Assembly: GCA_023267435.1 (NCBI GenBank)
Contig: JAHFNH010000004.1
Location: forward strand, 1,236-65,235
From: Candidatus Nomurabacteria bacterium
GTDB taxonomy: Bacteria; Patescibacteriota; Minisyncoccia; Phycocordibacterales; UBA9973
DNA length: 64,000 bases
Direction: 5' to 3'
Below the pieces are notes generated by a model that worked only from the letters and a program-made list of their open reading frames with translations, searched no databases and was not told the DNA's origin. The position numbers and the translations under genes are program-made. This document shows positions 205 through 60,950 of the stretch, piece after piece (position 1 is the first letter of the stretch; each line of letters begins with the position of its first letter).

Positions 205-237
205 TTTCCGCCTCTACGGCGGATCAGCCGATGAGGC
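205..237. repeat. GC-rich hairpin repeat (HR family) copy 1: tttccgcctctacggcggatcagccgatgaggc
   Basis: Near-identical to 32726-32758 and the reverse complement of 53834-53866. Folds as a nested stem-loop gcctc/gaggc with an inner cggcg/cgccg stem. Confidence 0.7.
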
Positions 238-12893: not shown

Positions 12894-12927
12894 GTGCATC
12901 TTCGGCACATCCGCCGTCGAGGCGGAT
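12894..12927 (+). promoter_or_regulatory. two GC-rich hairpins in the secA leader (tgtgc-atcttcg-gcaca; atccgcc-gtcga-ggcggat), related to the HR hairpin family
   Basis: ccgccgtcgaggcgg resembles ccgcctctacggcgg of the HR repeat. Located 36 nt upstream of the secA ATG. Confidence 0.4.
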
Positions 12928-20246: not shown

Positions 20247-21164
20247 ATGAAAAACAATAAAGGTTTTACGATGGTTGCGATAGCTCTGATTATGTTAGCT
20301 GTTTTTGTTGTGGGTGGCAGTGTTATTTATTTGATTACAAAAGGTTCAACACCTTCTTCACAAAATACAAACACATCAGTAAATAATTCTCCACAAGTGA
20401 ACCAGAACAGTGTTACAAATACAAATACACCTGTTCAAAATAATCCAGTTTCTAACAATCCAGCACCGACTGTCATAGGTAGTAATGCAGATATAAGTAA
20501 ACCTAAAACAGACTGTTTACCAACAACTACTCCTTCAATAACAGTTCTTTATCCAAATGGTGGAGAGGCATTTACTGTTAATCAAAAGATCATAATCAAG
20601 TGGTCGAGTTGTAATGTAAATAATGTAAATATTGCTTTACTAAGTGGAGGAAAAGATTTTGGAAATTTAACAATGACACCCATTTCTGCATCACCAGGTT
20701 CATTCCAATGGATGGCTTCGAATCCTGCTCAGGCTTTTACTCAATCAGGTACTAATAACTATCAGATTGGTATTACAAGTCAGTCACCTAATGTTCTGGT
20801 AAAAAGTAATACATTTACAATTCAACCTCAAGTTCAAACACAACCAATCACATTAATACAACCATTAGATCAAGTTGTGTGGACTGGCGGAAATCAATAC
20901 GATATAAGCTGGATTGCAGGTACAGGAAATGTAGCATTATCTGCTTGCAGTACAAACTATACAAATACAGGATATTCTCCTCAGCAATGCGTGCCTATCG
21001 TAAGCAACCTATCTTCTAGTGGTAGTTATAATTACAGTCTTCCTTCCAGTACCAGTTCGAATTCCGGTTTTGTAGAAATAAAAGCGACAGATTCAACAAG
21101 CACTTATGATAGTCATATTGTGAAAGTAAATAACTCTTCAATATTACCTTTAATAGGTGAGTAA
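20247..21164 (+). CDS. secreted pilin-like paralog 1 (prepilin-like N-terminus MKNNKGF...)
   Basis: Short basic leader ending in G then F plus a hydrophobic helix (class-III-signal-like, but no Glu at +5). Conserved DCLPTTTPS...PNGGEAFTVNQKIIIKWSSCN module shared with the next two genes. Confidence 0.55.
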   Translation: MKNNKGFTMVAIALIMLAVFVVGGSVIYLITKGSTPSSQNTNTSVNNSPQVNQNSVTNTNTPVQNNPVSNNPAPTVIGSNADISKPKTDCLPTTTPSITVLYPNGGEAFTVNQKIIIKWSSCNVNNVNIALLSGGKDFGNLTMTPISASPGSFQWMASNPAQAFTQSGTNNYQIGITSQSPNVLVKSNTFTIQPQVQTQPITLIQPLDQVVWTGGNQYDISWIAGTGNVALSACSTNYTNTGYSPQQCVPIVSNLSSSGSYNYSLPSSTSSNSGFVEIKATDSTSTYDSHIVKVNNSSILPLIGE

Positions 21165-21176
21165 TAATTAATTTTT

Positions 21177-21782
21177 ATGAAAAAATATTCAAAAGGATTT
21201 AGTAGTATTACGCTCATTGTTTTAATTGTACTGGTAGTAGGTTTTTATTATTTTTCAACAATAAAAACGAATACAAATACGAACCAAGTAAATAAAAATA
21301 TTGTTACAAATAATTCTGTAAATAGTGCAGACAGTAATGCAGAAATAAATAAACCTAAAACAGGTTGTTTATCTTCAACAACTCCCTGGATTAAGATTTT
21401 GTCCCCAAACGGTGGAGAGATATATTCTGTTGGTCAGCAGATTACAGTAACCTGGACGAGTTGTAATATACCTTCGAATTCTCTAATTTCATTTCGTCTT
21501 TATTTTAACAATAGTAGTACTATACTTGAAAATTCACTCACAGGTCCTGGTCCTGGAAATGCTGTAAATAATGGAATAAAAAATATTATTATTCCTAATA
21601 TTACAAATAACCCAACACATGGTTTAAACATTATGTGGTCTGGATGGAGTTTAGGCGGGTCTTATTTTAAAATTAAAGCATTTGTAGTTGCACCTATTTC
21701 TGTTAATGGTACTATTGTTGGCACTCCTACTTCTTCTGGAATAGAGGATTTATCTGATAATACGTTTACAATAAATCCTTAA
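21177..21782 (+). CDS. secreted pilin-like paralog 2
   Basis: MKKYSKGFSSITLIV... N-terminus. Shares the KPKTGCLSSTTPWIKILSPNGGEIYSVGQQITVTWTSCN module. Confidence 0.55.
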   Translation: MKKYSKGFSSITLIVLIVLVVGFYYFSTIKTNTNTNQVNKNIVTNNSVNSADSNAEINKPKTGCLSSTTPWIKILSPNGGEIYSVGQQITVTWTSCNIPSNSLISFRLYFNNSSTILENSLTGPGPGNAVNNGIKNIIIPNITNNPTHGLNIMWSGWSLGGSYFKIKAFVVAPISVNGTIVGTPTSSGIEDLSDNTFTINP

Positions 21783-21875
21783 TTAATTTATCTAGATTGT
21801 CTTTTTAATAGGTGAGTAAGATTATAAGTGTGTTATTACTAAATAAGTTATTAATAGTTAATAAAAAAATTTTAA

Positions 21876-22946
21876 ATGAAAAACAATAAAGGTTTTATAG
21901 GTATGGGTTTGATATTAGCAATTATTGCTGTATTAATTATCGGTGGCTGTGCGTATTACGTAGGAAAGAATTCGAATACTACTTCTAAAAATACAAATGT
22001 AAATAATTCTCAACAGGAAAATCAAAATACTGTTACAAATACTCCTGTGCAAAATAATTCAACATCTGTTGTTGTGGGTGGTGCACAAATTAATACTAGC
22101 ACTTCTTCATCACAGCCATGTGCGAAAGGTGATACACCTTGGATAAAAGTTATTTCTCCAAATGGTGGGGAAACATTTACTGCTGGTCAACAAATTACTG
22201 TAAAGTGGACGAGTTGTAATGTAACACCACCAGTTAGTCTTATGCTTGTTAAACACGATTCATCTGTAGCATATACACAAAGTGAAGGACAAAGTGATTA
22301 TGCAGGGTTTACTCTTGGTGGTTTTAATTCTAACACTGGAACACCAGATGATGGTATTCAACAAATAACATTACCTAGTAGTTTAAATACTAATTTAACA
22401 TTAGGTCAGCATTATTTTATTATAGTTGCTGGTCAAGACAATCCATCTTTCGGACCAGGATTTAGTCCAAGAGATTTGTCGGACAATTTATTTACAATAA
22501 ATAATTCAATAAAGGATGAACCGAAGATAAAACCATTTGGAGGAGTTTCTGCTCTTGCACCAGTGGTTATTTATAAGCCAAAGAACAATAATTATGCTAA
22601 TTTGGTTTGGGTTAATTTAGATTCTAGTAAAACACAAATAACATCTTTTCCTGGTCCAGGTGATGTAAGAAGTCCAGTCTCTTTACATGGTGGTTATTTT
22701 GTTAAGAGTTTTGGTGGAAAGGATTCAGTTCCTTTAAATTTAATAATTTCAACATATGCCACGTATACTTCCACTTTATCTCTTGCACAGATGTTTAATT
22801 TAATTTTGGATATGAATCCAATACTTGAATTATATGATTGTACAAATAGTTACCACCAAGATTTTATTGCAGAGGATGTTAAGGCTTCTAATTTAAATAC
22901 CTATATTGATAACAATCAACTATCTGTTAAGTGTGTACAATATTAA
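21876..22946 (+). CDS. secreted pilin-like paralog 3
   Basis: First 24 nt identical to paralog 1 (atgaaaaacaataaaggtttta). Shares the PWIKVISPNGGETFTAGQQITVKWTSCN module. Confidence 0.55.
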   Translation: MKNNKGFIGMGLILAIIAVLIIGGCAYYVGKNSNTTSKNTNVNNSQQENQNTVTNTPVQNNSTSVVVGGAQINTSTSSSQPCAKGDTPWIKVISPNGGETFTAGQQITVKWTSCNVTPPVSLMLVKHDSSVAYTQSEGQSDYAGFTLGGFNSNTGTPDDGIQQITLPSSLNTNLTLGQHYFIIVAGQDNPSFGPGFSPRDLSDNLFTINNSIKDEPKIKPFGGVSALAPVVIYKPKNNNYANLVWVNLDSSKTQITSFPGPGDVRSPVSLHGGYFVKSFGGKDSVPLNLIISTYATYTSTLSLAQMFNLILDMNPILELYDCTNSYHQDFIAEDVKASNLNTYIDNNQLSVKCVQY

Positions 22947-23004: not shown

Positions 23005-24093
23005 TTATTCTAAATACATCAATGTCATTTTGTGATCTTTTGGTTCGAACAATGTGATCTGGAAGTTGTAGGTCTTACCAAGTTCCAATTTTTCACGAAG
23101 TTTTGCTTCAGATCCAAAGGTTGAGTTGTGGACAAGTCCAGCTACTCCTTCTTTGATTGAAACTAATGCACCGTGCTTGTTGTATTTAATAACTACGCCT
23201 TTGATGATATCGCCCTTCTTTAATTTGTCTTCGTACTCTTTCCATGGGTTTTCTTTTAGAGCTTTGATAGAAAGGGAAATCTTACCATCTTTTATTTCAA
23301 TAACCTTAGCACGAACAGGATCGCCAACTTTGAATAGGGTACGAGGATCTTCTACGAGACCCCAATCAAGTTCAGAGATGTGTACGAGACCTTCTAGACC
23401 ATCTTCAAGTTTCAAGAATACTCCGAAGTCGACAAGACCTGCGACTGTACAATCTAGATCATCACCAACATTGTATTTACTTAGGATTTCTTTTTTTTCT
23501 TCAGGATTGTTGTCTTTTTCAGAGAAGATTAGTTTACCTTCTTTTGGAAGAGTAGAAATAATCATAACTGAAATTTTCTGGCCAATGAGTTTCTTTAATT
23601 CTTTTAATATTTTATCTTTATCAGAATCTAGAACGCGAGGGTAGTGATCTGCTTTAAGCTGGGAAGCTGGTAGGAATCCTTGGATACCTTGCCATTCCAA
23701 AATAAGTCCGCCTTTGTTTGCATCCTTGATTTCCAAATCCATGACAGTCTTAGCCTTGATTGCTTTCTCGGCTTCGCTCCATGTGAGGGCTTGTTTAGCT
23801 TCCTTTAGAGAAAGTTCTACATAACCGTCTTCGTTTTCTATGTCAACAACTTTTGCTTTGATAATATCACCAAGATTTATTTTCTTGATTATATCTTTTG
23901 CGTTGATAAATTCTCGTCCGTAAATAATACCTGTTCTGAAAGGTGACAAATCAACAAAGACTGATGATTTTTGGATAAGAATGACAGGACCTTCCACAAG
24001 AGAATCGACTTCCAATTTACTGGAACTTCGATCGACGATAGATTTTAAAACTGGGTTTTCTATTACTTCTACGATTGCTTCTTCTTTTTTCAT
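23005..24093 (-). CDS. rpsA: 30S ribosomal protein S1 (four S1 domains)
   Basis: Repeated S1-domain signatures (GDIIKAKVVDIE..., GDDLDCTVAGLVDFGVFLKL, VGDPVRAKVIEIKDGKISLSIK). Confidence 0.85.
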   Translation of the reverse strand: MKKEEAIVEVIENPVLKSIVDRSSSKLEVDSLVEGPVILIQKSSVFVDLSPFRTGIIYGREFINAKDIIKKINLGDIIKAKVVDIENEDGYVELSLKEAKQALTWSEAEKAIKAKTVMDLEIKDANKGGLILEWQGIQGFLPASQLKADHYPRVLDSDKDKILKELKKLIGQKISVMIISTLPKEGKLIFSEKDNNPEEKKEILSKYNVGDDLDCTVAGLVDFGVFLKLEDGLEGLVHISELDWGLVEDPRTLFKVGDPVRAKVIEIKDGKISLSIKALKENPWKEYEDKLKKGDIIKGVVIKYNKHGALVSIKEGVAGLVHNSTFGSEAKLREKLELGKTYNFQITLFEPKDHKMTLMYLE

Positions 24094-24110
24094 ATTATTT
24101 GCAACTTAAT

Positions 24111-24135
24111 AAAAAAATCCGCCAATAAAGCGGAT
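24111..24135 (-). promoter_or_regulatory. hairpin plus U-tract in the rpsA leader (possible attenuator or translational operator)
   Basis: On the minus strand, atccgctttattggcggat is followed by ttttttt, 17 nt before the rpsA ATG. Confidence 0.3.
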
Positions 24136-24254
24136 ATTAGGCTTAGGTTCTCTAAGATCGAAATCTTTGGAGGGTTACCCTAAATCCATGCTTTTAATAA
24201 ATATTTAAGTTGTACCAACATACTACTACAAAACCATAAAAATGCAACCTTTAC

Positions 24255-24322
24255 CTTGTCTATTTTGCATCCCACCCGCCTCACCCCTGACCCCTCTCCA
24301 AAATAAGATTTTAGAGAGGGGA
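24255..24322. repeat. GC-rich repeat A flanking the DUF559 cassette (…ttgcatcccacccgcctcacccc…cccctctcc-N13-gagagggg)
   Basis: About 80% similar to the left arm of 24975-25064. Contains an internal inverted repeat. Confidence 0.55.
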
Positions 24323-24394
24323 GAAATACAACCTCTTGACGTGCAGAGAGAGAGAGTATTATGAGGGTATTATTATTTTAAATAAAAAATATAT

Positions 24395-24610
24395 ATGGAA
24401 AATGCACCTGTTTCTTTAGAACAAAAAAGAAAAGATATTATCAATAATGCCAAGGGTCTGTTCGCGACTGCTCTCGATGAACTTGGGTCTACGTATGGGA
24501 CACCGATGAAAGGTATGGAAGATGACCAAAAGAATATGATAGAAATGCGTTTGAAAAATTTGGAATCTCTCATAAAAATGATAAACGAAAAACTAAAAGA
24601 GGTTTCTTGA
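24395..24610 (+). CDS. hypothetical small protein (71 aa)
   Basis: ORF with an upstream TTGACG...TATTAT promoter-like element and an (ag)5 run. No family recognised. Confidence 0.35.
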   Translation: MENAPVSLEQKRKDIINNAKGLFATALDELGSTYGTPMKGMEDDQKNMIEMRLKNLESLIKMINEKLKEVS

Positions 24611-24625
24611 TCTAATTAAAATTTT

Positions 24626-24979
24626 TTAAGAGGTATATTTTTTAATTTTCTCCAATGATTTATCTAAGTCTTTTTCTATTTCTGAATTCCAAAATCGGAT
24701 GACTTGGATATTCTTTGATTTTAAATATTCCGTGCGTGCTTTATCGTACTCTTTATTTTCTTTATGAATAGAGCCGTCTAATTCAATGGCGAGTTTTATT
24801 TTTGGTGCATAAAAATCAAGAATGAATTTCTCTATTGGGTGTTGCCTGCGAAATTTTACTCTGAGTTTATTGTTTCGTAGTTCTTTCCAAAGAATTTTTT
24901 CTGCTTCTGTTTCTTCTTTTCTGAGATAACGAGCTTTTGTTATTGATTGTAATTTTGGCATAAGATAATTATACCTCAC
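24626..24979 (-). CDS. DUF559 (Vsr/restriction-endonuclease-like) domain protein
   Basis: FRRQHPIEKFILDFYAPKIKLAIELDGSIHKENKEYDKARTEYLKSKNIQVIRFWNSEI matches the DUF559 endonuclease-domain pattern. Confidence 0.7.
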   Translation of the reverse strand: MRYNYLMPKLQSITKARYLRKEETEAEKILWKELRNNKLRVKFRRQHPIEKFILDFYAPKIKLAIELDGSIHKENKEYDKARTEYLKSKNIQVIRFWNSEIEKDLDKSLEKIKKYTS

Positions 24980-25064
24980 CCTGTCTGCTTCGCATCCACC
25001 CTCCCCATTTTTTTAAAAAAATGGGGAGGGGAAAGGGGTGGGGTGCATTTGTTTTCCTGTCTGG
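24975..25064. repeat. GC-rich palindromic repeat B (gcatccaccctcccca-T7A7-tggggagggg...ggggtggggtgc), flanked by cctgtctg direct repeats
   Basis: Near-perfect hairpin in an AT-rich context. Related to the in-frame palindrome in mnmA (60679-60724) and to repeat A. Confidence 0.65.
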
Positions 25065-25085
25065 TTTTGTTATAATATATCAACG

Positions 25086-25712
25086 ATGATAATCACATAT
25101 TTCGGCAAGCAATTTTTTAAGATAACCCAGGGCGAGATGGTTTTAGCCTTTAATCCTGTTAGCAAGAATTCCAAGTCTGGCATTTCAGCTCACTTCGGTG
25201 CAGATATAGCATTAATTACGACTAATCATCCCGACTACAACGGCATAGACCAACTTTCTCACGGAGAGAGGGAACCTTTTGCTATTAAAGGTCCAGGAGA
25301 TTATGAAGTAAAAGAAATTTTTGTTAAAGGTGTTATGTCTGAGACAACATTGTCTGGTAAAAATTATATCAACACTATTTATGCGCTTTCAGTTGATAAT
25401 ATAAATATCGCTTTTTTAGGAGCGTTATCAAATGCAGAAATTTCAAAAGAAGCGCGTGAAGCAGTCGGCGAGCCGGATATTCTTTTTGTGCCAGTCGGTG
25501 GAAATGGTTTGCTTGATACAAAACAATCCGCAAAACTCGCTTTGTCTTTCGAACCAAAAATGATTATACCGATGGATTATGATAGTGCATCGCTTAAAGC
25601 TTTCTTAAAAGAAATTGGAGAAGAAAAAGCTGAAGCAGTAGACAAGCTCACACTTAAGAGAAAAGATTTAGAAGGCAAGGAAGGGGATGTTGTAGTTTTA
25701 AAATATGATTAA
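25086..25712 (+). CDS. MBL-fold metal-dependent hydrolase (UPF0173-like)
   Basis: ITYFGKQFFKI...LITTNHPDYNG...ILFVPVGGNG... pattern of the small MBL-fold hydrolases. The track ORF starts at 25038, inside repeat B; Met 25086 is the more likely start. Confidence 0.5.
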   Translation: MIITYFGKQFFKITQGEMVLAFNPVSKNSKSGISAHFGADIALITTNHPDYNGIDQLSHGEREPFAIKGPGDYEVKEIFVKGVMSETTLSGKNYINTIYALSVDNINIAFLGALSNAEISKEAREAVGEPDILFVPVGGNGLLDTKQSAKLALSFEPKMIIPMDYDSASLKAFLKEIGEEKAEAVDKLTLKRKDLEGKEGDVVVLKYD

Positions 25713-32725: not shown

Positions 32726-32758
32726 TTCCGCCTCTACGGCGGATCGCCGATGAGGCGA
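32726..32758. repeat. HR hairpin repeat copy 2 (ttccgcctctacggcggatcgccgatgaggcga) in the 5' UTR
   Basis: Stem gcctc/gaggc with inner cggcg-gat-cgccg. Lies 28 nt upstream of the ATG at 32787. Confidence 0.7.
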
Positions 32759-53833: not shown

Positions 53834-53866
53834 TCGCCTCAACGGCGATCCGTCGAAGAGGCGGAA
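53834..53866. repeat. HR hairpin repeat copy 3 (reverse orientation) in the typA leader, preceded by a hairpin plus T-run (53808-53830)
   Basis: tcgcctcaacggcgatccgtcgaagaggcggaa is the reverse complement of copy 2 with a few mismatches. Lies 28 nt upstream of the typA ATG. Confidence 0.65.
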
Positions 53867-59801: not shown

Positions 59802-60950
59802 TTGATAAAGCAAAAGAAAACTATATTTGTCGGTATGTCGGGTGGGGTGGATTCTTCTGTTTCCGCTGCTATTTTAAAAGACCAAGGATATGATGTCGTT
59901 GGGGTTTTTATTCGTACCTGGCATCCTGATTTTTTGGTTTGTAATGAAGAAGACGAACGCCGCGACGCTATGCGCGTCGCGGCGCATTTAGATATTCCAT
60001 TTCTGACTTTCGATCTTGCAGATGTATATAAAAAAGAAGTGGCTGATTATATGATTTCTGAATATAAGGCAGGACGCACTCCAAACCCAGATGTGATGTG
60101 TAATAAAGAAGTGAAGTTTGGCGCTTTTCTAAAAAAGGCACTAGAGATGGGTGCGGATTATGTGGCGACAGGGCATTATGCGCAGGTTTCATTAAATAAA
60201 AATTTAAAAGATTTTGGAGCCTTCGCCCTTGGAGAATTAAAGAGAGGGGGCTCTAAAAATCTTTCAAATTTTTCTTTAATTAAAGGCAAAGACCCTTCCA
60301 AAGATCAATGTTATTTTTTGTGGACATTAAAACAAGAACAACTAAAACATATTTTATTTCCAGTGGGACATTTAAATAAAACAGCTGTGAGAAAACTGGC
60401 GAAGAAATATAAATTACCAGTAGCAGAAAAGAAAGATAGTCAGGGTATATGTTTCTTGGGTGATATTGATTTGAAAGATTTTTTGAAACACTATATTAAA
60501 GAAAAAAGAGGGAAAATTTTGCTAGAAAATGGTGAAGAAATTGGATTCCATGACGGTGCGGTTTTCCATACTCTCGGTGAACGTCATGGTTTTACAATTA
60601 CCAAAAAAGGTCCGAATGATAGTGCGTATTATATTGTCGGAAAAGACGTAAAGAAAAATATTTTAGTTGTTTCGCAGAACCCCTCCCAACCCTCCCCTTA
60701 TCAAGGGGAGGGCGAGGGTGGGGTAATTAAAAAATTAGATAATGTGAATTTTATTTCAGGTATTCCAAATGAAAATAAAAATTATACAGCGCAGATAAGA
60801 TATCACGGAGAATTTTTAGATTGTAAAATTAAAATTACTGGAAAAACAACCGTTGAAGTAATTTTTGAAAAACCAGTATTAGTAGCGGGAGGTCAATCGG
60901 TAGTCTTTTATGATAAAGATATTTGTCTTGGCGGGGGAGTAATTATTTAG
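59802..60950 (+). CDS. mnmA: tRNA-specific 2-thiouridylase MnmA, carrying two in-frame palindromic-element insertions
   Basis: PP-loop VGMSGGVDSSV. CNKEVKFGAFL…ATGHYA, DPSKDQCYFL motifs. Extra segments FGAFALGELKRGGSKNLSNF and PSQPSPYQGEGEGG. Confidence 0.85.
   Translation: MIKQKKTIFVGMSGGVDSSVSAAILKDQGYDVVGVFIRTWHPDFLVCNEEDERRDAMRVAAHLDIPFLTFDLADVYKKEVADYMISEYKAGRTPNPDVMCNKEVKFGAFLKKALEMGADYVATGHYAQVSLNKNLKDFGAFALGELKRGGSKNLSNFSLIKGKDPSKDQCYFLWTLKQEQLKHILFPVGHLNKTAVRKLAKKYKLPVAEKKDSQGICFLGDIDLKDFLKHYIKEKRGKILLENGEEIGFHDGAVFHTLGERHGFTITKKGPNDSAYYIVGKDVKKNILVVSQNPSQPSPYQGEGEGGVIKKLDNVNFISGIPNENKNYTAQIRYHGEFLDCKIKITGKTTVEVIFEKPVLVAGGQSVVFYDKDICLGGGVII
60207..60268. repeat. palindromic element (arms aaaagattttggagcc / ggctctaaaaatcttt) in frame inside mnmA
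   Basis: Shares ttttggagccttcgccct with the uvrC copy. Inverted AT-rich arms around a GC-rich core. Confidence 0.75.
60679..60724. repeat. GC-rich palindrome (cccaaccctcccc-ttatcaa-ggggagggcgagggtgggg) in frame inside mnmA
   Basis: Same arm motif (accctcccc / ggggaggg..gggtgggg) as repeat B at 24975-25064. Sharp GC spike within an AT-rich gene. Confidence 0.7.

What the first reader, a model, noticed from the sequence alone, without database searches (positions are those of the whole stretch)
24255..25064. DUF559 endonuclease-like gene bracketed by related GC-rich palindromic repeats
The DUF559 (Vsr/restriction-endonuclease-fold) ORF at 24626-24979, together with a small unknown ORF, is flanked by two ~70-90-nt GC-rich repeats (24255-24322; 24975-25064). 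The repeats share ~80% similar arms (ccttgtct..ttgcatcccaccc / ccctgtctgcttcgcatccaccc), and the right-hand one is a near-perfect long hairpin flanked by cctgtctg direct repeats. The cassette sits between rpsA and an MBL-fold hydrolase whose track-predicted N-terminus is partly read from the repeat. The arrangement looks like a small mobile or homing-type module, or a MITE-delimited insertion.
Basis: partly seen in the sequence, partly recalled or inferred. Interest (0 to 1): 0.65.

Follow-up and report, generated by a model that had tools for sequence, protein, structure and literature searches.

The report
Endonuclease gene bracketed by mobile palindromes
A small DNA-cutting-enzyme gene (DUF559) and the GC-rich hairpin repeats on both sides of it form a roughly 780-base cassette that the closest related genomes lack, and the same gene-plus-hairpin pairing recurs across many bacterial phyla, sometimes spliced in frame into essential genes, so it looks like a widespread selfish element I could not find described.

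Summary
Window 24271-25048 is about 778 bp that the two closest relatives lack; there rpsA and the MBL hydrolase lie 217 bp apart. The segment holds a 111-aa DUF559 nuclease gene, an orphan 71-codon ORF and two copies of a modular GC-rich palindrome (C-rich arm, loop, G-rich arm, extra arm GGGGTGAGG).

A covariance model built only from other genomes hits both flanking copies (E=5e-16 and 8e-12). Its only other hit in the 64 kb lies in frame inside mnmA (E=2e-8).

In 80 DUF559 loci from many phyla, 75 carry such hairpins within 200 nt of the gene and 53 carry them on both sides, a 45-fold enrichment. In at least 12 loci the unit repeat-DUF559-repeat sits in frame inside a large host gene; Pfam confirmed LeuRS, IleRS, ValRS-type, MetH, HsdM, MmeI-like and DUF1156 hosts. 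Solo palindromes far outnumber gene-carrying ones.

The fold is closest to 3HRL and to the homing endonuclease I-Bth0305I.

Best reading: a selfish nuclease-plus-palindrome cassette. Its layout resembles REP/RAYT, its in-frame insertion resembles Rickettsia palindromic elements, and its enzyme resembles a homing endonuclease. Enzyme activity and the mobilisation mechanism are inferred, not shown. I found no prior description.

The parts
24271..25048 (.). The whole cassette: about 778 bp present in the window and absent from the empty site of the closest relatives. It is bounded by GCAT on both sides (24267-24270 and 25045-25048) and by a 12-nt terminal inverted repeat, TGCATCCCACCC (24266-24277) / GGGTGGGGTGCA (25036-25047).
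   Evidence: Pairwise alignment with L087 and L085; sequences; inverted repeat I25.
24265..24325 (-). Left repeat unit, downstream of DUF559 in gene orientation. It consists of hairpin H (24291-24321, CCCCTCTCC / loop / GGAGAGGGG read on the - strand) followed by the extra arm GGGGTGAGG (complement of 24279-24287).
   Evidence: Covariance model R1: 53 bits, E=5e-16; fold z=-3.6; near-identical units in L004, L001 and L017.
24253..24277 (+). Linker-like module ACCTTGTCTATTTTGCATCCCACCC. It is a degenerate copy of the CTGCTTCGCATCC module of the longer 'L-type' elements, and it also resembles the sequence at the empty site.
   Evidence: D2 (80% over 20 nt). Its status, element part or target site, is unresolved.
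24395..24610 (+). orf71, an orphan 71-codon ORF lying between the DUF559 stop codon and the downstream repeat. A variable passenger or chance ORF: L001 has an unrelated 153-aa ORF in this position and L004 has none.
24626..24961 (-). DUF559 endonuclease gene (111 aa), with a Vsr / I-Bth0305I-like PD-(D/E)XK fold. Residues R38 R39 Q40 H41 P42 D49 E60 D62 H66 are invariant among 31 relatives.
   Evidence: Pfam E=2.5e-34; alignment A1; PDB 3HRL E=6e-24; AF2 model pLDDT 79.7 and Foldseek hits 3HRL 2e-7 and 3R3P 8e-5.
24968..24973 (-). TATAAT hexamer exactly 6 nt upstream of the DUF559 ATG. It is a likely -10 box of a leaderless transcript, so the promoter would lie inside the cassette.
   Evidence: Sequence. 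The same 6-nt spacing of a TAnnnT hexamer occurs in 17 of 22 Patescibacteria loci, against a background of 2.4% per position. Function is inferred.
24974..25048 (.). Right repeat, upstream of DUF559: a complete two-sided 'L-type' element. Its parts are outer arm CCTCACCC (24974-24981), linker TGTCTGCTTCGCATCCA (24982-24998), hairpin H (24999-25030, with 18-nt perfect arms), GAAA, G-rich arm GGGGTGGGG (25035-25043) and TGCAT.
   Evidence: R1 hits on both strands: 24994-25057(+) 40.8 bits, E=8e-12, and 24960-25035(-) 20.3 bits, E=1e-4. Fold z=-4.5. Homologous L-type elements in L007, L009, L010 and L013.
25056..25063 (+). CCTGTCTG, a direct repeat of 24980-24987 that flanks the right hairpin.
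   Evidence: D18. Significance unresolved.
60680..60724 (+). Solo copy of the same palindrome family, inserted in frame in mnmA (peptide NPSQPSPYQGEGEGGV). It shares the window-specific variant (CCCTCCCC / GGGGAGGG, GGGTGGGG) with the right repeat and is preceded by TTCGCAG.
   Evidence: GC scan; sequence and ORF; fold z=-4.9; R1 31.1 bits, E=2e-8; absent from several MnmA orthologues and from PDB MnmA chains.

Best explanation
The feature is one copy of a widespread selfish cassette. The cassette consists of a small DUF559 nuclease gene with its own leaderless-type promoter, bracketed by copies of a cognate GC-rich palindromic repeat (C-rich arm, loop, G-rich arm, then a second G-rich arm such as GGGGTGAGG).

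Proposed mechanism (inferred). The DUF559 protein recognises and nicks or cuts these palindromes, either as duplex sequence or as extruded hairpins. Host repair or replication of the break then copies, removes or relocates repeat-bounded DNA. This spreads solo palindromes, which are the great majority, and occasionally the nuclease gene together with its two repeats.

Most reading frames of the repeats are free of stop codons; only one frame of the G-rich strand contains a stop, the TGA within GGGTGAGGG. The open frames encode Pro/Ser/Gly/Glu-rich linkers such as PSPxPSP...GEGxGVR. Solo repeats and the whole repeat-nuclease-repeat unit can therefore persist as in-frame insertions in essential genes.

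Shown: the indel, the family membership of the repeats, the cross-phylum gene-repeat association, the in-frame insertions and the nuclease fold. Inferred: that the nuclease acts on the repeats, and how copying occurs.
For: - Presence/absence: the closest relatives have an empty rpsA-MBL site, and the alignment breaks at a duplicated GCAT.
- Repeat family: model R1, built from other genomes, hits exactly three sites in the 64 kb, and two of them flank the only DUF559 gene. The stem is 95% paired against 49-71% in slid controls, and its two inner pairs show compensatory changes.
- Association: 75 of 80 DUF559 loci have such hairpins within 200 nt and 53 have them on both sides, always as an inverted pair. 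Density is 5.7 per kb near the gene against 0.13 per kb in 1.09 Mb of flanks.
- Cross-phylum conservation: the Patescibacteria-derived model hits 69 sites in 60 loci of other phyla. By my manual reading of the coordinates, most (about 57) lie within roughly 250 nt of a DUF559 ORF.
- The unit moves as a whole: continuous reading frames run through repeat-DUF559-repeat inside LeuRS, IleRS, ValRS-type, MetH, HsdM, MmeI-like and DUF1156 proteins. In LeuRS of the isolate Ilyomonas limi it is a clean insertion of about 150 aa.
- Solo copies: they lie in frame in mnmA here, with orthologues that lack them, and inside long ORFs in other Patescibacteria loci. In an unbiased metagenome sample only 9 of 160 elements have DUF559 nearby. 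That ratio resembles non-autonomous to autonomous copies.
- Fold: the nearest characterised structural neighbour is the catalytic domain of homing endonuclease I-Bth0305I (PMC3239194).
- Promoter: a -10-like hexamer sits 6 nt before the start codon in 17 of 22 loci.
Against: - Vertical inheritance: at the rpsA-MBL site the gene is syntenic in at least seven related genomes, and its identity (67-78%) tracks that of neighbouring MBL (66-79%). This suggests long vertical inheritance and low mobility, so the empty site may be a deletion.
- Ends not defined: GCAT is only 4 bp, and the adjacent linker motif is ambiguous between target site and element part.
- No recent copies: no two copies in the window are identical.
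- Chemistry: a hydrolytic PD-(D/E)XK nuclease cannot perform strand transfer on its own.
- Most palindromes have no DUF559 gene nearby, so they could spread by another route.
- No biochemical data exist for any DUF559 protein in the literature searched.
Confidence: 0.6

Rival explanations
1. The palindromes are the mobile entities, mobilised by some other, unidentified enzyme or by replication slippage. DUF559 is only a passenger or a favoured landing place, for example a host repair, defence or addiction nuclease with no activity on the repeats.
For: Only 5.6% of elements sampled without regard to genes have DUF559 within 250 nt. Other repeat-peptide families also invade mnmA. PD-(D/E)XK nucleases lack strand-transfer chemistry.
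Against: The geometry is fixed: an inverted pair at short, conserved distances from the start and stop codons, seen across phyla in genomes of 32-69% GC. The three parts also appear together inside unrelated host genes. No other conserved gene accompanies them in the loci read.
Confidence: 0.15
2. DUF559 is a vertically inherited housekeeping nuclease, and the hairpins are its own cis-regulatory, insulating or terminator elements. The cassette is not mobile and the difference from close relatives is an ordinary deletion.
For: Conserved synteny and neighbour-like divergence. The downstream hairpin overlaps or directly follows the stop codon. The promoter lies just after the upstream hairpin.
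Against: The hairpins lack T-tails and were not called as terminators. With a leaderless start, the upstream hairpin is not in the mRNA. Solo copies sit in frame in mnmA and other ORFs. The unit is found inside LeuRS, IleRS, MetH and HsdM reading frames. The empty site is clean.
Confidence: 0.1
3. The system works on RNA. DUF559 shares its fold with RAP/FASTK-type RNA-binding nucleases and would bind or cut the flanking hairpins in transcripts. This could serve mRNA processing or autoregulation, or at the extreme, excision of the insert from host mRNAs followed by ligation.
For: Foldseek also hits Vsr-like proteins of mitochondrial ribosomes. Stem covariation is compatible with RNA as well as DNA hairpins. 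In-frame inserts in essential enzymes would be harmless if removed at the RNA level.
Against: In Patescibacteria the inferred leaderless start excludes the upstream hairpin from the DUF559 mRNA. Reading frames stay open through both junctions in all the nested cases, which would not be needed if the insert were spliced out. There is no Rfam family match. The outer stem is conserved in sequence, not only in pairing.
Confidence: 0.07
4. The inverted repeats are sites of programmed inversion, forming a phase-variation switch around DUF559.
For: 'DUF559 domain-containing protein' is 14-fold enriched among predicted inversion targets (PMC9881135). The cassette occurs in both orientations relative to efp in different genomes.
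Against: No invertase gene was called next to the locus in the loci whose gene calls were examined. The gene carries its own promoter inside the invertible segment, so inversion would change nothing. That enrichment is what any gene flanked by inverted repeats would produce.
Confidence: 0.03

Closest known systems
REP / RAYT (REPIN) systems
   Same: A single small nuclease gene is flanked by inverted copies of a short GC-rich palindromic repeat, and the repeat is also dispersed in many solo or doublet copies. The gene is largely vertically inherited. Repeat sequence varies between lineages while the architecture is kept. A gene-less doublet with two inner hairpins enclosed by outer arms is seen in L004 3877-3990.
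   Different: The enzyme is a PD-(D/E)XK Vsr-fold hydrolase (PF04480), not a Y1 HUH transposase. There is no GTAG/CGTC tag. The repeats carry an extra G-rich arm. Solo repeats and the whole unit occur in frame inside genes. The pairing occurs in phyla, including Patescibacteria, for which I know of no REP/RAYT report (from memory, not checked).
Rickettsia palindromic elements (RPEs)
   Same: [quoted passage not shown]
   Different: These repeats are much shorter (about 45-90 nt), GC-rich within an AT-rich genome, distributed across phyla and partnered with a nuclease gene. No associated enzyme is known for RPEs (background knowledge).
Vsr-like (EDxHD) homing endonucleases such as I-Bth0305I, and 'fractured genes'
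   Same: The catalytic fold is the same (Foldseek 3R3P E=8e-5, TM 0.67-0.74). It is a selfish nuclease gene that lodges in conserved essential genes and shows presence/absence between relatives.
   Different: There is no intron or intein: Pfam finds only host domains plus DUF559 and Rfam finds nothing. There is no NUMOD/HTH DNA-binding extension. The gene carries its own flanking palindromes, which classical homing endonuclease genes do not.
IS200/IS605 elements
   Same: A very small gene is flanked by sub-terminal hairpins rather than long terminal inverted repeats. The indel is clean, with a short conserved tetranucleotide (GCAT) at both borders, which recalls insertion 3' of a target tetranucleotide.
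   Different: There is no TnpA (Y1) or TnpB. The enzyme class differs. The resemblance at the borders rests on a single empty site.

Membership tests
DUF559 (Pfam PF04480) protein family | HMM match above the curated threshold | tested here: met
   117.9 bits against a cut-off of 20.6, E=2.5e-34.
DUF559 (Pfam PF04480) protein family | Vsr-like restriction-endonuclease fold with conserved acidic and His residues | tested here: met
   AF2 model (pLDDT 79.7) matches 3HRL (E=2e-7, rmsd 1.8 Å) and 3R3P. D49, E60, D62 and H66 are invariant in 31 relatives. Their catalytic role is inferred.
REP/RAYT (REPIN) system | Associated gene encodes a Y1 HUH tyrosine transposase (RAYT) | tested here: not met
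   The only conserved gene is PF04480. There is no Y1_Tnp match.
REP/RAYT (REPIN) system | Nuclease gene flanked by inverted copies of the repeat | tested here: met
   Window; 53 of 80 loci have hairpins on both sides, in inverted polarity.
REP/RAYT (REPIN) system | Many dispersed copies of the same palindrome in the genome | tested here: inconclusive
   One further copy in this 64 kb; 0.13 per kb in flanks; solo copies dominate a metagenome sample. Whole-genome counts were not obtainable.
REP/RAYT (REPIN) system | Conserved GTAG or CGTC tetranucleotide at one end of the palindrome | tested here: not met
   Not present in alignment A3. The feature is defined in PMC3733652.
Rickettsia palindromic elements | Palindromic repeat inserted in frame in ORFs | tested here: met
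   mnmA 60680-60724; other loci.
Rickettsia palindromic elements | Sequence homology to RPE families, about 100-150 bp, in Rickettsia | not tested
   No RPE sequences were compared. Size, GC content and host differ.
Homing endonuclease gene (EDxHD / Vsr-like family) | Vsr-like catalytic domain | tested here: met
   Foldseek 3R3P E=8e-5.
Homing endonuclease gene (EDxHD / Vsr-like family) | Residence in a self-splicing intron or an intein | tested here: not met
   No Rfam intron match. No Hint/intein domain in nine host fusions.
Homing endonuclease gene (EDxHD / Vsr-like family) | Cleaves the empty allele and is copied into it | not testable with these tools
   Needs enzymology or genetics. An empty allele exists.
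MITE / IS-type transposon | Terminal inverted repeats | tested here: met
   12-nt TIR, 92% complementary, at 24266-24277 / 25036-47 (I25); inverted repeat units in 53 of 80 loci.
MITE / IS-type transposon | Target-site duplication | tested here: inconclusive
   Only GCAT (4 bp) is duplicated relative to one empty site.
MITE / IS-type transposon | Cognate transposase (DDE, HUH or serine/tyrosine recombinase) | tested here: not met
   No such gene in the cassette or recurrently next to it.
Intein | Hint splicing domain flanking the nuclease | tested here: not met
   The junctions are repeat-encoded linkers of 15-30 aa. Pfam finds no Hint domain.

The most novel reading that the evidence does not exclude
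DUF559 proteins are the trans-acting enzymes of a previously unrecognised, pan-bacterial repeat system, a functional analogue of REP/RAYT built on a Vsr-fold nuclease. Their stop-poor palindromes act both as portable recognition and homing sites and as flexible linkers. This would let the nuclease domain and its solo repeats nest in frame inside essential proteins (aminoacyl-tRNA synthetases, MetH, DNA methylases) without any intein or intron. It would also explain the PSPxPSP...GEGxGVR-type peptides seen at the ends of and inside many annotated bacterial proteins.
Probability: 0.35. Interest if true: 0.85.

Novelty: new variant of a known kind. Interest (0 to 1): 0.75.

Why it matters
DUF559 is a large, phylogenetically broad family with no assigned function. 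A specific, conserved DNA partner gives it a directly testable substrate.

If the nuclease acts on the palindromes, this would be a second, independent invention of the REP/RAYT lifestyle using a different enzyme chemistry. It would also be a route by which a nuclease domain and short repeats enter essential genes in frame without self-splicing, which bears on how proteins acquire insertions.

Practically, the repeats cause systematic mis-annotation. They add false N- and C-terminal extensions, as with the MBL hydrolase here and many DUF559 entries, and they may contribute to assembly breaks: one short-read contig carrying this gene starts close to the right-hand palindrome.

Tried and rejected
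- Known RNA families: Rfam at gathering threshold over the window finds only tRNAs. At E<=1 over 24100-25150 it gives only sub-threshold miRNA-hairpin look-alikes.
- Intrinsic terminators: neither GC-rich hairpin is called. The only call near the locus is the conserved hairpin upstream of rpsA at 24117-24135, which the empty-site relatives also have.
- G-quadruplex idea: the G-rich side in the window (GGGGAGGGGAAAGGGGTGGGG) and in many phyla fits a four-tract motif. Lineages whose repeats read CCCCTTTAGGGGATTTAGGGGT have only two G-tracts, so this is not a universal feature. Dropped as the defining property.
- Exact ends and target-site duplication: unresolved.
- orf71: no homologues, only weak coiled-coil-like noise.
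- Phage vehicle: only one distant DUF559 relative in 2.9 million viral contigs.
- Literature: 25 papers mention DUF559 and none describes flanking repeats or nested insertions. The only hint is enrichment among inverted-repeat-flanked 'inversion targets'.
- Simple pattern searches with up to 3 mismatches missed the family. A GC-island scan and the covariance model found it.
Full report
**1. What is in the window**

The window is AT-rich (35% GC). Its best protein matches are from Candidatus Nomurabacteria / Paceibacterota, i.e. Patescibacteria.

Between rpsA (23005-24093, -) and an MBL-fold hydrolase (true start 25086, +) the following lie in order:
- A GC-rich element at 24253-24325.
- An orphan 71-codon ORF at 24395-24610 (+).
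- A DUF559 gene at 24626-24961 (-), Pfam E=2.5e-34.
- A second GC-rich element at 24974-25048, containing an 18-nt perfect palindrome.

**2. The two repeats belong to one family, and there is a third copy**

Reading homologous loci shows that the repeats are modular. The modules are:
- A hairpin H, with arms CCCCTCTCC and GGAGAGGGG around a variable loop.
- A second G-rich arm, GGGGTGAGG, a few bases 3' of the hairpin ('O3'). In the opposite orientation this appears as its complement, CCTCACCCC, 5' of the hairpin ('O5').

I aligned 34 such units from 20 other Patescibacteria genomes. The stem is 95% paired, against 49-71% when the partner columns are slid. The outer pairs are invariant and the two inner pairs show compensatory changes.

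A covariance model built from this alignment scores as follows:

| Site | Bits | E-value |
|---|---|---|
| Left element, 24265-24325(-) | 53 | 5e-16 |
| Right element, 24994-25057(+) | 40.8 | 8e-12 |
| Right element, opposite strand, 24960-25035(-) | 20.3 | 1e-4 |
| 60685-60737(+) | 31.1 | 2e-8 |

Apart from weaker overlapping hits at these same three loci (E=1.3e-3 and 3.1e-3), nothing else in the 64 kb scores below E of about 1.

The third site lies in frame inside mnmA and encodes NPSQPSPYQGEGEGGV. It sits at the linker before the C-terminal barrel. That position is shorter in solved MnmA structures and in several orthologues. In other orthologues it carries different repeat-derived peptides.

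**3. The cassette is an indel**

The closest relatives I could find are L085 (GCA_036169735.1) and L087 (GCA_049287045.1). They are 95% (rpsA), 94% (gyrA) and 90% (MBL) identical to the window at protein level. In both, rpsA and MBL are 217 bp apart, with no DUF559 gene and no GC-rich palindrome.

The window's left flank aligns with that spacer up to a GCAT at 24267-24270. The right flank resumes at a GCAT at 25045-25048. The window therefore carries about 778 extra bases, which are also bounded by a 12-nt inverted repeat, TGCATCCCACCC / GGGTGGGGTGCA.

A third relative, L088, has an unrelated 321-aa ORF in the slot.

More distant relatives (rpsA 83-88%: L001/L005, L004, L010, L016, L017, and L012, where the contig ends before rpsA) do have DUF559 at this site, with the repeats. 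Their DUF559 identity (67-78%) is similar to that of neighbouring MBL (66-79%).

The distribution is therefore patchy. Either there was an old insertion followed by precise loss in the lineage of L085 and L087, or there were repeated insertions at one site. I cannot tell which.

**4. The gene-repeat partnership is general**

A scan of one genome per species with the DUF559 alignment returned 80 loci from Patescibacteria, Bacteroidota, Chloroflexota, Verrucomicrobiota, Proteobacteria, Planctomycetota, Cyanobacteria and others.

I used a simple detector: a C-rich pyrimidine arm, a stem of at least 7 with at most one mismatch, and a loop of 3-24. It finds the same three loci in the window that the covariance model finds (four overlapping calls). 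Applied to the 80 loci:
- 75 loci have at least one such hairpin within 200 nt of the gene.
- 53 loci have hairpins on both sides.
- Density is 5.7 per kb near the gene against 0.13 per kb in 1.09 Mb of flanks.

The Patescibacteria-derived model hits 69 sites (E<=1e-3) in the 60 loci from other phyla. By my manual reading of the coordinates, most (about 57) lie within roughly 250 nt of a DUF559 ORF.

The pair is always inverted, but there are two polarities:
- O5-H, gene, H-O3. Seen in Patescibacteria, Longimicrobium and Chitinophagaceae.
- H-O3, gene, O5-H. Seen in Verrucomicrobiota, Proteobacteria, Chloroflexota and Planctomycetota.

Repeat sequences differ between lineages. Examples are CCCTTCTCC/GGAGAAGGG, CCCCCATTATTGGGGG and CCCCTTTAGGGG+TTTAGGGG. 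The architecture of C-arm, loop, G-arm and second G-arm is kept.

**5. The unit nests in frame inside genes**

In at least 12 loci a single open frame runs for hundreds of codons on both sides of the DUF559 domain. Pfam confirms these hosts:

| Host protein | Loci |
|---|---|
| IleRS | L027 |
| LeuRS | L032, L074 |
| ValRS-type | L034, L066 |
| MetH | L061 |
| HsdM | L064 |
| MmeI-like enzyme | L076 |
| DUF1156 protein | L046 |

Junction peptides place L079 at the same LeuRS site as L032. L028 and L084 show similar long open frames and junctions but were not scanned with Pfam.

The junctions are the repeats read through. One example is ...PLKPSPSGRGLGEG...[DUF559]...PSPNPLPEGEG....

In the LeuRS of the isolate Ilyomonas limi, the insert is a clean 150 residues between positions 486 and 496 of a solved LeuRS.

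Solo hairpins also lie inside long ORFs in several Patescibacteria loci.

**6. Solo copies dominate**

A metagenome scan for the repeat alone returned 120 loci holding 160 elements. Only 9 elements had a DUF559 ORF within 250 nt, and 83 clearly had none. This is the ratio expected of non-autonomous to autonomous copies, or of REPs to their RAYT gene.

**7. The protein**

The family profile matches the structural-genomics DUF559 protein 3HRL (E=6e-24). An AlphaFold model (pLDDT 79.7) matches, in order: 3HRL, then the catalytic domain of the homing endonuclease I-Bth0305I (E=8e-5), then Vsr-like proteins of mitochondrial ribosomes, PvuRts1I/AbaSI and Vsr itself.

I-Bth0305I is a Vsr-like enzyme that nicks or cleaves a pseudopalindromic TTxG-N6-CxAA site (PMC3239194).

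RRQHP, D49, E60, D62 and H66 are invariant among 31 relatives.

**8. Expression**

A TAnnnT hexamer (TATAAT in the window) ends exactly 6 nt before the start codon in 17 of 22 Patescibacteria loci. The background frequency is 2.4% per position. This suggests a leaderless transcript from a promoter that travels with the gene. That is an inference.

**9. Interpretation**

The data fit a selfish nuclease-plus-palindrome cassette. The mechanism I think most likely is this. DUF559 nicks or cuts its cognate palindrome. Repair of the break then copies or removes repeat-bounded DNA, in a homing-like way, between palindrome copies.

For the O5-H, gene, H-O3 class, recombination between the two hairpins would leave exactly the solo O5-H-O3 form seen in mnmA and to the right of the gene. 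Conversely, such a solo copy offers homology on both sides for copying the gene in.

This step is inferred. A hydrolytic nuclease alone cannot transpose DNA, the ends are not defined and nothing has been tested biochemically.

The rival explanations are the palindromes as independent elements, cis-regulatory hairpins, RNA-level function, and programmed inversion. They are listed with their evidence in the Rival explanations section.

**10. Comparison with known systems**

- The layout is that of REP/RAYT, but the enzyme is not a Y1 transposase and the GTAG/CGTC tag is absent. It is not a member of that family.
- In-frame palindromes recall Rickettsia palindromic elements, for which no associated enzyme is known.
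- The fold and the choice of essential host genes recall Vsr-like homing endonucleases, but there is no intron or intein.

The literature available here does not describe the association. 'DUF559 domain-containing protein' does appear as 14-fold enriched among genes flanked by inverted repeats in a survey of programmed inversions (PMC9881135).

**11. Unresolved points**

- The 17-nt motif GTCT..TT.GCATCC precedes both window elements in direct orientation. It is also internal to 'L-type' elements at unrelated loci in other genomes, and it resembles the empty-site sequence. TT(C/T)GCA(T/G) also precedes the mnmA copy. It may be the preferred target, carried along with the element.
- The meaning of the two polarity classes is open.
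- A conserved G·A mismatch (GGCGAGGGG) occurs in the upstream copy of many loci, and its meaning is also open.

Noticed in passing
window 208-237(+), 32727-32758(+), 53835-53864(+), 12896-12925(-): A second, unrelated family of about 30-nt GC-rich intergenic elements: CCGCCTC(T/A/G)(A/T)CGGCGGATC(A)GCCGA(T/A)GAGGCG. Outer arms are CGCCTC/GAGGCG and inner arms CCGCC/GGCGG. There are four copies, all in AT-rich spacers close to gene starts or terminator-like hairpins. No Rfam match.
   Followed up: partly
window about 60195-60290 (inside mnmA): A second in-frame insert of about 20 aa (NLKDFGAFALGELKRGGSKNLSNF), containing the inverted repeat AAAGATTTTGGAGCC / GGCTCTAAAAATCTTT. The same repeat peptide (FGAFALGDxGQGTH) occurs at two different sites in MnmA orthologues and is absent from others, so another in-frame repeat family is active in this clade.
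   Followed up: partly
window 25038-25085: The listed MBL-hydrolase ORF starts at a GTG inside the right palindrome. Homologues (207-208 aa, beginning MIITYFGKQ) show the real start is the ATG at 25086, preceded by TATAAT 9 nt upstream.
   Followed up: yes
window 24100-24250: The rpsA upstream region holds a terminator-like hairpin (24117-24135, - strand) and a block GGGTTACCCTAAATCCATGCTTTTAATA. Both are conserved in all relatives, including the empty-site genomes. This may be an rpsA leader or attenuator.
   Followed up: no
L071 9743-11485; L079 8380-9900: Pedobacter sandarakinus has three DUF559 genes in tandem, each separated by the repeat unit. A Chitinophagales leuS ORF contains two DUF559 domains plus several solo repeats in one 1319-aa frame.
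   Followed up: partly
L077 10560-11148: Five tandem repeats of about 141 bp, each carrying a hairpin (CCTCTCCCTCAGATGGCAGGGAGAGG), lie just downstream of a DUF559 gene in Brevefilum, within a 234-aa open frame.
   Followed up: no
window 20247-22946: Three consecutive ORFs (305, 201 and 356 aa) share a similar N-terminal signal/anchor and low-complexity N/T/S-rich region followed by a shared motif (TPWIKxxSPNGGE). They look like tandem paralogous secreted proteins.
   Followed up: no
L088 2332-3297: In a relative with 93% rpsA identity, the rpsA-MBL slot holds an unrelated 321-aa ORF of unknown function instead of DUF559. The slot seems to be a hotspot for gene gain.
   Followed up: no
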